DNA of 64,000 bases, from the IMG/VR virus record IMGVR_UViG_3300042361_000498, one strand, 5' to 3'. The notes beneath the pieces are model-generated. The model had not been told where the DNA came from. It made no database searches and saw only the letters and a list, made by a program, of their open reading frames with translations. This DNA is from a virus. Lineage: Duplodnaviria > Caudoviricetes. Positions 1,858-17,551 of this stretch are shown here, piece after piece; the first letter of the stretch is position 1, and each line of letters begins with the position of its first letter. Position numbers and translations under genes: made by a program.

Positions 1858-2607
1858 ATGCCAAGAAAGAAAAAAAGTAAAATATACTTTTCGCAAGATA
1901 CCGAAAACGCAATTATAGAGTATAATAAATCAAAAGATTATGTAAAGAGAAATAGGATATATGTGGAAAGTATTCAGTATCCTTTTGAAAAATTAGCAGA
2001 AAATATTCTAAACACATTTAAGTTCACATACTTTGATGTACCTAAAGCAGATGTTCAGAGAGAGGTGGTATCTACTCTAATTGAAAAGATACACATGTTT
2101 AAAGAAGGTAGAGGTAAAGCATTCTCTTACTTCAGTATTGTTGCTAAGAACCACTTAATCTTAAAGAACAACGGAAACTATAAGAGGTTTAAGAAAACTG
2201 CTCTACTATCCGAAATGCCGGAAACTTGGAATCCACCAAATGATTTTGAAGAAGTACAAACCGGTGCGGAGTTTATGGAGTTCAGAGATTTAATGTTGGC
2301 GTATTGGGATAAACATCTAACAAGAGTATTTACAAAGAAAAGAGATATCCAAATTGCAGATGCGGTATTAGAACTATTCCGTAGAAGTCAATACATCGAA
2401 AACTTTAATAAGAAACATCTATATCTCCTTATTAGAGAAATGACAGATTGTAAGACACACTACATTACAAAAGTGGTAAACGAAATGAAGAAACATCAGA
2501 CAAAGATGTTAAATGATTACTTAGACCACGGATATGTAAAGGATGAGAATAACGATTTTTGGGAAGAGGAATACTTATATGAAACGGAACAAATAGACGA
2601 AGATTAA
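1858..2607 (+). CDS. Sigma-factor-like protein, probable T4 gp55-type late sigma
   Basis: EKLAENILNTFKFTYFD...EVVSTLIEKIHMFKEGRGKAFSYFSIVAKNHLI resembles sigma region 2 of gp55 (NPFAYFTQII-type motif); acidic C-terminal tail. Confidence 0.6.
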   Translation: MPRKKKSKIYFSQDTENAIIEYNKSKDYVKRNRIYVESIQYPFEKLAENILNTFKFTYFDVPKADVQREVVSTLIEKIHMFKEGRGKAFSYFSIVAKNHLILKNNGNYKRFKKTALLSEMPETWNPPNDFEEVQTGAEFMEFRDLMLAYWDKHLTRVFTKKRDIQIADAVLELFRRSQYIENFNKKHLYLLIREMTDCKTHYITKVVNEMKKHQTKMLNDYLDHGYVKDENNDFWEEEYLYETEQIDED

Positions 2608-12681: not shown

Positions 12682-12696
12682 TTAACAATTTGTTAA
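12682..12696. promoter_or_regulatory. Dyad TTAACAA-n-TTGTTAA, possible operator
   Basis: Perfect 7-bp inverted repeat upstream of the TonB receptor. Confidence 0.4.
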
Positions 12697-12732
12697 TACT
12701 AAAAGTATAATTTTATTAAGGTAGTTTCCTAT

Positions 12733-12760
12733 ATATTGATGAAAATTAAAACATCAATAT
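12733..12760. promoter_or_regulatory. 9-bp inverted repeat overlapping the TonB receptor start codon
   Basis: ATATTGATG-n10-CATCAATAT; right arm includes AT of the ATG at 12759. Confidence 0.4.
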
Positions 12761-15242
12761 GAGGAAACTACTTTTATTATTAACGTTACTAATTCCTACA
12801 ATATCCTTTTCACAAACCTTATCGGGTAAAACAAAATCAAATAAAGAAGAACTCATTGGAGTTACAATTTGGCTAACTAACAAAGATACAAATAAAAAAG
12901 TTGGAAGTACATCTGATATTGAATCCAAATATCAATTCCAAAATGTAGTAGTTGGAAACTATTCAATTAAAGCATCATTTGTTGGATATAAAGAATACAC
13001 AAAAGATATTACAATTAATGGAGATACCAATTTAGATATCCTAATTGAAGAAGATACAAAGGTATTGCAAGAAGTTGTGGTAAAGCAAGTAGCAAAGAAA
13101 GAAACTGCAACTGCACTTATCAATACACTTAAAGCATCTTACATTGTAGCAGATGGTTTATCAATTGAATCAATAAAGAAAACACCAGATAGAACTGTTG
13201 GAGATGCACTTAAAAGAGTTAGTGGTGTAACAATCCAAAACGATAAGTTTGTTTTAGTTAGAGGTTTAGCTGATAGATACAACTTGGCTCTACTAAACAA
13301 ATCAATCCTACCATCAACCGAACCTGATAGAAGAGCATTCTCATTTGATATTATCCCAACATCACTAATAGATAATATCATCATCAACAAAGGAGCATCT
13401 GCAAACCTACCCGGTGATTTCGCAGGAGGTTTAGTACAAATAACAACAAAAGAAGTTAGTGGTGATTTCTTTAATATATCATTGGGGGGCAGTTGGGGTT
13501 CACTATCAACGGGACAGGATTTTAGGTTGGTAGACGCTATACAATTCCCAACATCATTTCCATCAACAAATGGATATAGAATTGCGGGATTAGGTGATAG
13601 AAGAGCATACACTAAACTAATAGGTTCTCCGCAAACCGAAACATCAACATCTATTCCAAACTTAAATGGTAACTTATCATTTGGTGTTGTTAAAAACAAA
13701 TGGAACATCTTATTCAGTTCAACTGCAAGAAACACATACTCTGCCAACACAACTAAAAGAATTGATTACCAATCATCAACTGAATTAGCATACAACTATA
13801 AAGACCAGAACTATTCAAATGTACAATCATTAAATGGATTATTAAATATAGTTTATTTAGGTGAGAATCGTTATAGTTGGAAAACACTTGCTAACTACCA
13901 AAACGAAAAATCATTTTTAAGTAGAGTTGGTGAGAACTACGATAATGTTCAGTATGTAGATAGTAAATCATCCAACTCAATTCAAAAGTTAGTATTCAAT
14001 ACACAATTCGAAGGTAAGTTTAAAACATTTGATTTTAATTTAGGATACAATCTTATGTTAAGAGACCAGCCCGATTATAGAGTAACACCTTACATATCAT
14101 CTTTATATACAACAACTCCTTACTCAATAGCATGGAGAGACACGTATCGTTTTTGGAGTGTAATGGATGAAAACTCATTCAATGGGGGATTGAACAAATC
14201 CATAGGAGATGTTCGTTTAGGAGTGGGTTACTTGAAGAAATTTAGAAACTTCAAAGCAAGAATATTCAGATACGAATCAACTGATTTATTAAATGAGATT
14301 ACAAACAATACTGATAGATATACTGCCGATTTTGATTTGGCAAATGCATATGTGATGTATGAAAAAGAAATTGATAAATTAAAAATAAACACAGGTTTTA
14401 GAACGGAATACAATTTATTTAAAGTTCAAACATCTGATTTTGGTGGACAACGGATTTCAGTAGATAGAGAGTATTTGGATTTACTACCATCATTAAACGC
14501 AACCTATTCTACATCGGAAAAAAAAAAGGTTAGATTATCCGTAAGTAAAACATTAGCAAGACCAGAGTTTAGAGAGGTAGCTAATTTTGCATATTATGAT
14601 TTTGTTAGAAACGCACAACTATTAGGAAATCCAAACTTACAAAAAACGGATATATTCAATTCAGATATAAAGTTTGAGTTGTATCCTAAATCAGGTGAGA
14701 ACATATCAATCGGTTTCTTTGGTAAAAAGTTCTTCAATCCAATTGAGCAAGTTGTAGCAGATGGTTCAGTTCCATCAAACCTTTTACTAACATATAAAAA
14801 CCCAAAAGAAGCATTGGTATATGGAGTTGAGATTGAACTTCGTAAGAAATTAAATGATTGGATAGATTTATATTCAAACACATCGTTTATCAATTCGGAA
14901 GTACAAATCGGTTCAGTAAAAAGACAATTGCAAGGACAATCAAACTATGTAGTAAATGGTGGATTGAACTTACATAAAAACAACAATACATTCAACATAT
15001 CATACAATAGAGTTGGAGATAGAATATCAGCAGTAGGATTTCAAGGATACCCTGATATATTTGAAAACTCTCGTGATGTAGTTGATATTGTTATTCTTCG
15101 TAAAATTAAAAACGGAGAAATTAAATTAGCAGTATCGGATATATTCAGACAACCATTTGAGTATTATCAAAAACCAAATAGAACTTTAATTAAAACAAAC
15201 AACGAAACAACAGTTTCACTAACACTAAATTACAACCTATGA
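12759..15242 (+). CDS. TonB-dependent receptor with N-terminal carboxypeptidase-regulatory-like domain
   Basis: Signal peptide; GNYSIKASFVGY; LQEVVV TonB-box region; plug DALKRVSGVT...VRGLADRYN...DIIP..LIDNIIINKG...FAGGLVQITTK; barrel ending VSLTLNYNL. Confidence 0.93.
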   Translation: MRKLLLLLTLLIPTISFSQTLSGKTKSNKEELIGVTIWLTNKDTNKKVGSTSDIESKYQFQNVVVGNYSIKASFVGYKEYTKDITINGDTNLDILIEEDTKVLQEVVVKQVAKKETATALINTLKASYIVADGLSIESIKKTPDRTVGDALKRVSGVTIQNDKFVLVRGLADRYNLALLNKSILPSTEPDRRAFSFDIIPTSLIDNIIINKGASANLPGDFAGGLVQITTKEVSGDFFNISLGGSWGSLSTGQDFRLVDAIQFPTSFPSTNGYRIAGLGDRRAYTKLIGSPQTETSTSIPNLNGNLSFGVVKNKWNILFSSTARNTYSANTTKRIDYQSSTELAYNYKDQNYSNVQSLNGLLNIVYLGENRYSWKTLANYQNEKSFLSRVGENYDNVQYVDSKSSNSIQKLVFNTQFEGKFKTFDFNLGYNLMLRDQPDYRVTPYISSLYTTTPYSIAWRDTYRFWSVMDENSFNGGLNKSIGDVRLGVGYLKKFRNFKARIFRYESTDLLNEITNNTDRYTADFDLANAYVMYEKEIDKLKINTGFRTEYNLFKVQTSDFGGQRISVDREYLDLLPSLNATYSTSEKKKVRLSVSKTLARPEFREVANFAYYDFVRNAQLLGNPNLQKTDIFNSDIKFELYPKSGENISIGFFGKKFFNPIEQVVADGSVPSNLLLTYKNPKEALVYGVEIELRKKLNDWIDLYSNTSFINSEVQIGSVKRQLQGQSNYVVNGGLNLHKNNNTFNISYNRVGDRISAVGFQGYPDIFENSRDVVDIVILRKIKNGEIKLAVSDIFRQPFEYYQKPNRTLIKTNNETTVSLTLNYNL

Positions 15243-16441
15243 AAAAATTATTAGTATTGTTCGCAAGTTTAACAATCTTTGGATGTTCTAAAGATTTGGG
15301 TGGAGAAGTTACACCAATCAATGTACCAACCTCAACAACTTTGAGTGGTAATATCACATCAACTACAACTCTTACATCGGATAAAGAGTGGGTATTAAAA
15401 GGATATGTTTATGTAACCGATGGTGCTAAAGTTATCATTCAACCTGGCACAATTATCAAATCTGATATAAGTGAGAAAGGTGCATTGTGTATTGAAAGAG
15501 GAGCACAAATTGTAGCAGAAGGTACTGCATCAAAACCAATCATATTTACATCTGGTAGACCCGCAGGAGAAAGAACTCCCGGTGATTGGGGTGGTATTGT
15601 AATATTGGGTAGAGCAAAAACCAATAGAACATCCGAACCAACTATCGAAGGTGGTATTGGTAGAGCATATGGTGGAACAAACGATTTAGATAATAGTGGT
15701 ATCTTAAAATATGTTCGTATTGAATACGCTGGTATTGCGGCAATGCCAAACTCTGAAATCAACGCATTAACATTGGGTGGTGTTGGTAGTGGAACAATCA
15801 TTGAGAATGTTCAAACTATCTACGCTAACGATGATGCATTTGAGTTCTTTGGTGGAACTGTAAATGCAAAAAACTTATACGCATATGGAACTGCGGATGA
15901 TGATTTTGATTTTGATTTTGGATATAGAGGTAAAGTATCTAATTCAGTTTCTAAAAGAGACCCACAATTTGTAGATAATGGTGATGCAGGAAATGGTGTA
16001 GAGTGTGATAATGATGGTACAGGTTCATCAGCAGAACCATTCACACATCCTATATTAGATGGTGTAATTTTAATTGGACCAAATGATGCAGCATCTTTAC
16101 CAAACCATAATTTAGCAATGAGATGGAGAAGAGCAACTCAATTTGAGGTTTACAATTCTACAATCATTGGATATATGAAAGGTGGGTTCTCAATGGAAAG
16201 TAACGAAACTGCACAATTCTACAAAGATGGTGTAAGTAAATTTCAGAACAACAAAATTGGTTCATTTAATTTATTAAACTTTATCAGTAAAGCAACTACT
16301 ATTATTACATCTGATGCGGTTAAAACAAAGGCGTTGAGTGAGGGTAATACTGAAATAACTTTAACTGCTAGTGAAATAGAAACTTTATCTAAACCAAATT
16401 GGACGAATGGTTGGACAAAATTCCCAACAAAAGGAAATTAA
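15239..16441 (+). CDS. Beta-helix lipoprotein, partner of the TonB receptor
   Basis: Lipobox IFG-C; GDWGGIVILGRA, DNSGILKYVRIEYAG, NDDAFEFFGG, ADDDFDFDFGY repeats; ATGA overlap with the receptor. Confidence 0.75.
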   Translation: MKKLLVLFASLTIFGCSKDLGGEVTPINVPTSTTLSGNITSTTTLTSDKEWVLKGYVYVTDGAKVIIQPGTIIKSDISEKGALCIERGAQIVAEGTASKPIIFTSGRPAGERTPGDWGGIVILGRAKTNRTSEPTIEGGIGRAYGGTNDLDNSGILKYVRIEYAGIAAMPNSEINALTLGGVGSGTIIENVQTIYANDDAFEFFGGTVNAKNLYAYGTADDDFDFDFGYRGKVSNSVSKRDPQFVDNGDAGNGVECDNDGTGSSAEPFTHPILDGVILIGPNDAASLPNHNLAMRWRRATQFEVYNSTIIGYMKGGFSMESNETAQFYKDGVSKFQNNKIGSFNLLNFISKATTIITSDAVKTKALSEGNTEITLTASEIETLSKPNWTNGWTKFPTKGN

Positions 16442-16481: not shown

Positions 16482-16490
16482 ATATTTATA
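16482..16490 (+). promoter_or_regulatory. ATATTTATA putative late promoter
   Basis: 20 nt before the ATG at 16511. Confidence 0.6.
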
Positions 16491-16510: not shown

Positions 16511-17551
16511 ATGTCATCCTCAAAAACCCTGTTTATATTAAAAAGAAAACAAAACTATAATCTTTCAACCGATTATAGTATTGGTTTAAGTACCGGCCTG
16601 TACAATTCAGCTCAATTTATGAATCAAATGCTATTAGATGGCGGGTTTGATTCTCAAATGGTAGTTGTAAATGATAATAACGATATAGATAGAGAAGTAA
16701 CTCTACACAAACCAACCCACGTTATTATTGAAGCTCTTTGGGTTGTTCCATCTAAATTCGAAGTTCTTTGCAAATTACATCCAAACGTTAAATGGGTAAT
16801 TCGCTTACATAGCGAAATACCATTTTTAGCAAATGAAGGAATGGCAATGGATTGGATTGGGGAATATAGTAAATTTGATAATATTATTATTTCTTGCAAC
16901 TCACCACAAACTACCAAAGATATTGAGTTTTATATGAGTACAAAATTAGGTATTAAAAAACATATAGATTTTTTACCAAATTTTTATCCACAACAATACA
17001 AAACTAAATCATTCAATAAGAAAGGTGATACGATTCACATAGGATGTTTTGGTGCAATTAGACCTCTAAAAAATCATCTTATACAAGCATTTGCAGCAAT
17101 TAAGTTTGCAGATGAAATTGGTAAAAAATTACATTTCCATATCAATTGCGATAGAGTTGAACAAAAAGGAGAACCAATATTAAATAACTTAATAAGTATG
17201 TTCAATCATTTGGAACATAAAGGTCATAAGTTAGTTCATCATGAGTGGAGTGTTAGAGAGCAATTTATTCAATTATGTTCTACGATGGATATTGGAATTC
17301 AGATATCATTTAATGAAACTTTTAATATTGTAGGAGCTGATATAGTTTCACAAGGAGTTCCTTTGGTATCTTCACCTGAAATCCCTTGGGCTAATTCATT
17401 ATTTACTGCAAGACAAACTAATACTGATGATATTGTAGATTCACTATTATGTACTTACGCATATCCAAAAATAAATGTATTATTAAATCAAAGGGGTCTT
17501 GAAAAATATACAAATAAAACAAAACATATTTGGTTTAAGTTTTTCAAATGA
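16511..17551 (+). CDS. GT-B glycosyltransferase (GT4-like)
   Basis: IGCFGAIRPLKNHL...DIGIQISFNETFNIVGADIVSQGVPLV (variant of the E-x7-E motif). Confidence 0.75.
   Translation: MSSSKTLFILKRKQNYNLSTDYSIGLSTGLYNSAQFMNQMLLDGGFDSQMVVVNDNNDIDREVTLHKPTHVIIEALWVVPSKFEVLCKLHPNVKWVIRLHSEIPFLANEGMAMDWIGEYSKFDNIIISCNSPQTTKDIEFYMSTKLGIKKHIDFLPNFYPQQYKTKSFNKKGDTIHIGCFGAIRPLKNHLIQAFAAIKFADEIGKKLHFHINCDRVEQKGEPILNNLISMFNHLEHKGHKLVHHEWSVREQFIQLCSTMDIGIQISFNETFNIVGADIVSQGVPLVSSPEIPWANSLFTARQTNTDDIVDSLLCTYAYPKINVLLNQRGLEKYTNKTKHIWFKFFK

What the first reader, a model, noticed from the sequence alone, without database searches (positions are those of the whole stretch)
12759..16441. Complete TonB-dependent receptor plus beta-helix lipoprotein pair carried by a phage
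Seen: a full-length 827-aa receptor with plug and barrel, coupled by ATGA to a 400-aa lipoprotein. It lacks the late motif and the TAnnTTTG box. Known: receptor-lipoprotein pairs import nutrients in Bacteroidota, and such receptors are common phage receptors. Inference: an auxiliary uptake module (my recollection that this pair occurs near phosphate-starvation genes is unverified), or a decoy that changes the surface receptor repertoire.
Basis: partly seen in the sequence, partly recalled or inferred. Interest (0 to 1): 0.65.

Follow-up and report, generated by a model that had tools for sequence, protein, structure and literature searches.

The report
Phage phosphate-starvation importer and lid
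Large lake phages carry a trimmed two-part outer-membrane importer from their bacterial hosts' phosphate-starvation kit, behind what looks like the host's phosphate switch joined to a phage promoter, and this phage-type version appears to have replaced the native genes in some Aquirufa bacteria.

Summary
Confirmed, and not a chimera. The pair is a TonB-dependent transporter (plug, TonB box, 22-strand barrel) plus a beta-helix surface lipoprotein, matching the phosphate-starvation pair of Flavobacterium (Fjoh_0545/0546) and Caulobacter (ElpS). Bacterial relatives sit beside pit, oprP-like, plcP and phoBR genes. At least 47 phage lineages carry it under purifying selection, and a model seats the lipoprotein on the barrel (0.79, best control 0.00). 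The scan reported this pair before in other phages (e1-5391790, e1-5369959). Best reading (about 65%): an auxiliary importer for organic phosphorus during infection of starved hosts. Ligand, PhoB binding and expression are unmeasured. A decoy role is unlikely.

The parts
12683..12698 (+). Pho-box-like direct repeat TAACA-N6-TAATA (11-bp period), at -47 and -36 from the core element
   Evidence: Perfect double repeat before 22 of 47 phage copies against 0.46 in shuffles and 4 of 171 other upstream regions; same spacing as in Aquirufa and other Bacteroidota; triple repeats in the Aquirufa genome mark plcP, pit and this transporter. PhoB binding not measured.
12730..12737 (+). Core promoter element TATATATT, one mismatch from the phage late motif family TAnYTATW (TATTTATA before structural genes); stands where hosts have TAnnTTTG
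   Evidence: Exact in 35 of 47 relatives, mostly 25-31 nt before ATG; the motif lies mostly 27-36 nt before late genes of this genome. Function inferred.
12759..15242 (+). TonB-dependent transporter, 827 aa, non-SusC, short form: signal peptide, N-terminal CarboxypepD_reg extension, TonB box, plug, 22-strand barrel
   Evidence: Pfam, model, Foldseek to PhuR/PfeA/FepA at E 1e-25 to 1e-23; dN/dS about 0.13 among phages.
13065..13082 (+). TonB box candidate LQEVVV (residues 103-108)
   Evidence: An EVVV/EVTI-like motif is kept before the plug in phage, Aquirufa and long bacterial forms, also in copies that lost the N-terminal domain.
13467..15239 (+). Beta-barrel (residues 237-827); about 95 residues of loops present in long bacterial forms are missing
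15239..15242 (+). ATGA stop/start overlap coupling the two genes
   Evidence: the 4-base overlap is present in nearly all phage copies, while Aquirufa has a 1-2 base gap.
15239..16441 (+). Beta-helix lipoprotein, 400 aa (ElpS / FII / BT4056 type, PF28492); lipobox Cys16; invariant acidic set D198 D199 E202 D220 D221 D222 D224 D226 E255 D257 N258; predicted lid on the barrel
   Evidence: 24 key residues invariant in 47 of 47 phage copies, dN/dS about 0.18; complex score 0.79 against best control 0.00.

Best explanation
An auxiliary phosphorus-scavenging importer. SHOWN by computation: intact transporter and lipoprotein, conserved in a wide phage radiation; orthologues belong to bacterial phosphate loci; a Pho-box-like repeat sits at host spacing before a phage late-type element; the lipoprotein is predicted to cap the extracellular loops. 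INFERRED: in a phosphate-starved Bacteroidota host, phosphorylated host PhoB binds the repeat and raises transcription while phage-type promoters are being read; the transporter is placed in the outer membrane and the lipoprotein on the surface by host machinery; the acidic face of the lid, probably through a bound divalent metal, captures a phosphate-bearing anion (an organic phosphoester or phosphate polymer); host TonB pulls it into the periplasm, where host phosphatases and Pit supply Pi for the DNA of a 200-330 kb genome. The phage thereby keeps or boosts a host function during infection, as cyanophages do with pstS. The ligand is unknown for the whole family.
For: Of 81 bacterial loci, 42 hold PHO4/Pit, 37 DUF47, 23 a histidine kinase and 20 an OmpR-type regulator (PhoR/PhoB-like), 15 a PlcP-like phosphoesterase, 15 its glycosyltransferase, 11 an alkaline-phosphatase-superfamily gene; Aquirufa adds Porin_O_P. 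Fjoh_0545 has the same three Pfam domains, and it and Fjoh_0546 rise log2 8.0 and 9.9 under Pi depletion only (PMC8115612). Promoter conservation. Purifying selection and invariant core. Complex score 0.79, best of 3 controls 0.00; the mark was reached by 58 of 80 solved and 2 of 110 mismatched pairs; runs agree in at least 88% of contacts, partner pLDDT at least 91. Four phages carry a GT2 plus PlcP-like gene pair, resembling phosphate-starvation lipid remodelling genes, right behind the pair. A 635-kb phage holds a separate, distant copy (28%/36%). Precedent: phage pstS under host PhoBR, absence of pstS delays lysis at low P (PMC10976474).
Against: No ligand or transport has been shown for any family member; ElpS was only associated with phosphatase activity and its receptor gene was constitutive in Caulobacter (PMC2996285). 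Pho-box prediction in phage genomes proved unreliable in a bench test (PMC10976474). About a fifth of phage copies show no clear repeat at that spacing. No expression data. No direct sequence comparison with Fjoh_0545/0546 could be run. It is not known that PhoB can activate a phage late polymerase.
Confidence: 0.65

Rival explanations
1. Phosphate-regulated, but not a phosphorus importer: the lipoprotein is itself a surface hydrolase, or the pair imports a metal or cofactor that host phosphatases need.
For: Invariant Asp/Glu cluster on a pectate-lyase-like fold; ElpS overproduction raised secreted phosphatase activity; the nearest long form P0246 lies beside a MauG-like gene, a family linked to PhoX in PMC8115612.
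Against: No solved enzyme stands out among the fold matches (top Z 23.8, ties across epimerases, lyases and tailspikes, 9-14% identity); the lid geometry over the pore fits capture and delivery. This rival shares the auxiliary-gene conclusion and differs only in chemistry.
Confidence: 0.18
2. Receptor decoy or superinfection exclusion: the phage pair dilutes, replaces or blocks a host receptor (for example by exchanging lids with the host's own pair) so that other phages cannot adsorb.
For: TonB-dependent transporters are common phage receptors (general knowledge). Aquirufa swaps two very different alleles at this locus, a pattern expected under phage pressure. The pair sits in a block of phage envelope genes, and the genome has a second transporter.
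Against: Lid-contact loop residues are more conserved (0.91) than the rest of the barrel (0.79), with no sign of diversification; TonB box and plug are kept; dN/dS 0.13-0.18; a phosphate-type operator is not needed for exclusion.
Confidence: 0.1
3. Direction of transfer, rival to the return-transfer reading: the short form arose in bacteria not yet sampled, and both Aquirufa and several phage lineages took it from them; or Aquirufa was the donor of the shallow phage group.
For: A tree with the shallow phages as one clade and Aquirufa outside is not rejected (p-AU 0.105) and is the best lipoprotein tree. The deep rows are long branches, and their phage status rests on gene context.
Against: All-phage monophyly is rejected (p-AU 2e-10 and 6e-4); Aquirufa short plus Spirosomataceae is rejected; Aquirufa's long alleles group with Spirosomataceae; the short form was not found in 400 other genomes of the phylum, and in only 3 of 201 of the family sample, all Aquirufa-sized; phage copies are far more diverse (down to 61%, deep ones 42-54% to the window) than Aquirufa short copies (82% or more).
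Confidence: 0.35
4. Virion part (tailspike-like beta-helix), or host DNA joined by misassembly.
For: Fold matches include tailspikes.
Against: Signal peptide and lipobox are invariant; same gene order in independent assemblies; 47 phage lineages in 28 different upstream contexts; phage-like GC3.
Confidence: 0.02

Closest known systems
Fjoh_0545 (TBDT) / Fjoh_0546 (lipoprotein FII), cluster PUSIV of Flavobacterium johnsoniae (PMC8115612)
   Same: Same Pfam trio on the transporter (PF07715, PF13715, PF14905), downstream pectin-lyase-fold lipoprotein, and the same kinds of neighbours in bacterial orthologues (phoBR-like, OprP-like porin, Pit, PF04101 glycosyltransferase).
   Different: Here phage-borne, about 100 residues shorter than typical bacterial forms, genes overlapped, no regulator or phosphatase alongside, host -7 box replaced by a phage late-type element. 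Not compared by sequence.
ElpS (CC0170) / CC0171 of Caulobacter crescentus (PMC2996285) and BT4055/BT4056 of Bacteroides thetaiotaomicron (bioRxiv 10.1101/2023.03.17.533168)
   Same: Beta-helix surface lipoprotein beside a non-SusC transporter; BT4056 was predicted to bind the outer face; the pair is adjacent in 621 genera.
   Different: No type II secretion genes; the paper reports few high-confidence contacts for BT4055/BT4056, whereas the phage pair gave a confident interface.
Cyanophage pstS under host PhoBR (PMC10976474 and work cited there)
   Same: Host-derived phosphorus-acquisition gene in a T4-like phage behind a host Pho box; patchy among related phages (8 of 35 full-length flanking loci).
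   Different: PstS is a periplasmic Pi-binding protein of an ABC system; this is an energised outer-membrane importer with a lid, in freshwater Bacteroidota phages.
psbA/psbD exchange between cyanophages and hosts (PMC1484495)
   Same: Host gene diversified in a phage pool with exchange back to hosts.
   Different: There the return is by intragenic recombination; here two whole reading frames appear to have replaced the native pair between unchanged flanks.
SusC/SusD and PusC/PusD
   Same: Barrel plus surface lipoprotein lid in Bacteroidota.
   Different: No SusC or SusD family match; the lid is a beta-helix.

Membership tests
TonB-dependent transporters | Plug domain | tested here: met
   PF07715 residues 134-224, E 6e-9
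TonB-dependent transporters | 22-strand outer-membrane barrel | tested here: met
   22 long strands counted in the model, pLDDT 89.7; 225 PDB matches at E <= 0.001, the best all TBDTs
TonB-dependent transporters | TonB box before the plug | tested here: met
   LQEVVV 103-108, motif conserved by alignment; function not assayed
TonB-dependent transporters | C-terminal aromatic BAM signal | tested here: inconclusive
   Ends in YNL; phage copies end in L, most bacterial ones in F
TonB-dependent transporters | TonB-driven import of a ligand | not testable with these tools
   Needs an uptake assay
ElpS / FII / BT4056 pair | Lipoprotein with pectin-lyase-like beta-helix (PF28492) | tested here: met
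   Cys16 invariant
ElpS / FII / BT4056 pair | Adjacent non-SusC transporter with PF07715, PF13715, PF14905 | tested here: met
   against Table 1 of PMC8115612
ElpS / FII / BT4056 pair | Orthologues in phosphate-starvation gene clusters | tested here: met
ElpS / FII / BT4056 pair | Direct sequence similarity to the named proteins | not testable with these tools
   The named proteins could not be fetched; PF28492 is not in the searchable Pfam copy
ElpS / FII / BT4056 pair | Induction by phosphate depletion | not testable with these tools
PhoB-controlled phage auxiliary genes (pstS type) | Host Pho box before the phage gene | tested here: met
   In silico only: conserved repeat at host spacing
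PhoB-controlled phage auxiliary genes (pstS type) | PhoB binds and activates during infection | not testable with these tools
   Needs gel shift and infection transcriptomics
SusC/SusD (including PusCD) | SusC family match and helical SusD lid | tested here: not met
   No SusC/SusD model hit; lid is a beta-helix
Superinfection-exclusion lipoproteins (T5 Llp, Cor) | Small lipoprotein that plugs a host receptor, no transporter of its own (from general knowledge) | tested here: not met
   400 aa, no PHROG match, travels with its own intact transporter and is modelled on its outer loops

The most novel reading that the evidence does not exclude
Lake phages captured a bacterial phosphate-starvation importer long ago, trimmed it by about 100 residues, rewired it to a hybrid promoter (host PhoB operator plus phage late element) so that it is made late in infection only in starved cells, and later handed the trimmed pair back to Aquirufa, where it displaced the native genes in place and now spreads between species.
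Probability: 0.4. Interest if true: 0.8.

Novelty: new variant of a known kind. Interest (0 to 1): 0.64.

Why it matters
It would extend phage phosphorus-scavenging from cyanophage pstS to an energised outer-membrane importer in freshwater Bacteroidota, a gene class for which the paper searches found no phage report (the library is incomplete). The promoter offers a direct test of whether a host regulator can gate a phage late promoter. The Aquirufa locus is a natural experiment: cultured species carry the phage-type pair, while sister genomes carry the long pair in the same slot. The compact pair, with a confident complex model, is a practical target for finding the ligand of the ElpS/FII family, which is spread over 621 genera and still unsolved.

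Tried and rejected
PHROGs and PDB sequence searches gave nothing for either protein; Foldseek gave no lipoprotein match at E <= 0.001, so no ligand could be borrowed from a structure. The sigma-70 scan's best hit (TTAACA-18-TATAAT) overlaps the repeat, but the TATAAT is not conserved in relatives: rejected. No terminator was found after the lipoprotein. GC3 of the Aquirufa short allele does not differ from its neighbours: no compositional trace of the donor. A clade of Aquirufa plus the window's group was not rejected on the lipoprotein (p 0.07) but is not its best tree. PhoH and the second transporter of this genome showed no such double repeat upstream. A PlcP homologue was not found in this 70% complete record. 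The second transporter (43-45% to many Spirosomataceae) does not name the host. Window 1858-2607 was considered as a late sigma factor; no PHROG match, unresolved. Tree rows left out: near-duplicates above 96%, fragments, most Chitinophagaceae.
Full report
Observation. The first has an N-terminal CarboxypepD_reg domain, a plug and an OMP_b-brl_3 barrel; its model has 22 barrel strands (pLDDT 89.7) and matches solved TonB-dependent transporters. The second is a lipoprotein (Cys16) with a right-handed beta-helix (PF28492; pLDDT 90.6; best Z 23.8, rmsd 3.7, 280 aligned, tied among epimerases, lyases and tailspikes). The contig is a 133-kb, about 70% complete virus record with baseplate, primase and SbcCD genes. 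An independent assembly repeats the gene order, and GC3 matches the neighbours, so it is not host DNA joined by error.

Spread among phages. About 74 proteins are 84-100% identical to the transporter. The lipoprotein alignment found 170 viral matches; after removing near-duplicates, 47 phage lineages remained, at 62-95% transporter identity, in 28 different upstream and 27 downstream contexts. Only 8 of 35 full-length loci around a conserved neighbouring gene hold the pair: it is a mobile accessory cassette. dN/dS is about 0.13 and 0.18, and 24 key lipoprotein residues are invariant in 47 of 47. The two genes also reassort: some phages pair a 95% transporter with an 83% lipoprotein. A 635-kb phage has a distant copy in the reverse gene order, probably a separate capture.

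What the bacterial version does. In 81 bacterial loci the commonest neighbours include Pit (42), DUF47 (37), a PhoR-like kinase (23), a PhoB-like regulator (20), PlcP-like phosphoesterase and glycosyltransferase (15 each); unrelated housekeeping genes recur too, through shared ancestry among Chitinophagaceae. Aquirufa adds a phosphate porin family gene. This is the layout of PUSIV in F. johnsoniae, where Fjoh_0545 (same three Pfam domains) and Fjoh_0546 are induced only by Pi depletion (PMC8115612); Fjoh_0546 is related to BT4056 and ElpS. Membership rests on architecture and context, since the named sequences could not be fetched. The ligand is unknown for all of them.

The promoter. A perfect TAAYA-N6-TAAYA lies before 22 of 47 phage copies (0.46 expected by shuffling; 4 of 171 other upstream regions). 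In the Aquirufa genome 5 of 6 triple repeats sit before plcP, pit and this transporter, so the repeat is very probably the Bacteroidota Pho box. Hosts place repeats at -58, -47, -36, -25 from the TAnnTTTG box. Phages place them at -47 (26 of 43) and -36 (31 of 43) from TAnYTATW, which is exact in 35 of 47 and belongs to the motif found about 27-36 nt before this genome's structural genes (TATTTATA). The window's copy, TATATATT at 12730, has one mismatch. The phage thus kept the operator geometry and changed the core element. Whether PhoB activates a phage polymerase there, or helps host polymerase read a degenerate box, is not shown; a bench study warns that predicted phage Pho boxes often fail, though those were single predictions, not elements conserved across lineages.

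The complex. Barrel (230-827) with lipoprotein (24-400) scored 0.79 against a best control of 0.00; the mark was reached by 58 of 80 solved and 2 of 110 mismatched pairs; runs agreed in at least 88% of contacts, partner pLDDT at least 91. Other transporter-lid complexes are solved, so likeness may help, but no close solved relative of either protein was found. Contacts ring the extracellular loops, and those residues are more conserved among phages than the rest (0.91 against 0.79; 0.93 against 0.85 in the lid). With the retained TonB box, this fits a working importer and not a diversifying decoy.

Direction of transfer. Typical bacterial transporters of this family are 920-990 aa and 30-45% identical to the window's; the short form lacks about 95 loop residues. 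Among bacteria it was found only in Aquirufa (70%), and only in 9 of 61 near relatives. Genomes with RpoB 99.0-99.6% identical to A. esocilacus hold the long pair in the same slot; DNA similarity stops at the lipoprotein's stop codon and resumes about 35 bases before the transporter's start, leaving the host Pho box in place. Long Aquirufa alleles group with Spirosomataceae; short ones fall inside the phage radiation, sister to the window's group (100/100; 99/97 under the mixture model), above deeper short forms in phage-like contexts. All-phage monophyly and vertical descent are rejected. A tree with Aquirufa outside the shallow phages is not rejected (p 0.105) and is the best lipoprotein tree, so the exact donor is unsure. 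I put phage-to-Aquirufa transfer at about 65%. It also suggests, without showing it, that Aquirufa is a host of this phage group.

Mechanism and verdict. Most likely the phage makes a lidded importer in phosphate-starved hosts to bring organic phosphorus into the periplasm for host phosphatases and Pit (0.65); a surface hydrolase or metal importer in the same regulon is the main rival (0.18), a decoy is less likely (0.10). Four phages carry GT2 and PlcP-like genes right after the pair, which fits a phosphorus theme. It works like cyanophage pstS but is a different protein class: a new variant of a known kind. Earlier notes of this scan reached the same basic reading on other phages; I had stated that reading before the look-up and tested it here. 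A word search of those notes found none on the Aquirufa replacement.

Noticed in passing
G000 C1:40421-43681 (-), outside the window (L101:2422-5682): A second intact TonB-dependent transporter (1086 aa, PF25183), on the opposite strand; it too forms a phage radiation (120 hits at 82-97%), is 43-45% identical to Spirosomataceae copies, and lies next to the pair in L264 and L294.
   Followed up: partly
L246:9545-10977, L270:9203-10632, L282, L300; L006:13685-14398: GT2 glycosyltransferase plus PlcP-like phosphoesterase (43-47% to Aquirufa PlcP) directly after the pair: a possible phage-borne phospholipid-to-glycolipid remodelling unit.
   Followed up: partly
L017, L242, L243, L245 and others: Over a third of phage transporters (747-752 aa) lack the N-terminal CarboxypepD_reg domain but keep signal peptide and TonB box; the loss appears in several branches.
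   Followed up: partly
L309:7920-7965: In a deep-branching phage copy the four-repeat array lies on the opposite strand, still before a TAGTTATC element.
   Followed up: no
window 16511-17551: GT4-like glycosyltransferase of viral clusters with its own exact late motif; not a regular neighbour of the pair.
   Followed up: partly
window, late promoters such as 16483-16490: The late motif TATTTATA is the reverse complement of the T4 late promoter TATAAATA (T4 sequence from memory).
   Followed up: no
window 1858-2607: 249-aa protein whose start recalls T4-type late sigma factors; no PHROG match.
   Followed up: partly
G000 C1:48938-49777 and C1:9619: PhoH gene without the repeat; a further TAACA-N6-TAACA double before a 167-aa gene with a signal peptide, inside the preceding reading frame, perhaps chance.
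   Followed up: no
L385:6605-8972, L390:8161-10555: The long Aquirufa allele has a 590-600 aa lipoprotein and an extra 180-aa gene of no known family that the phage-type allele lacks.
   Followed up: partly
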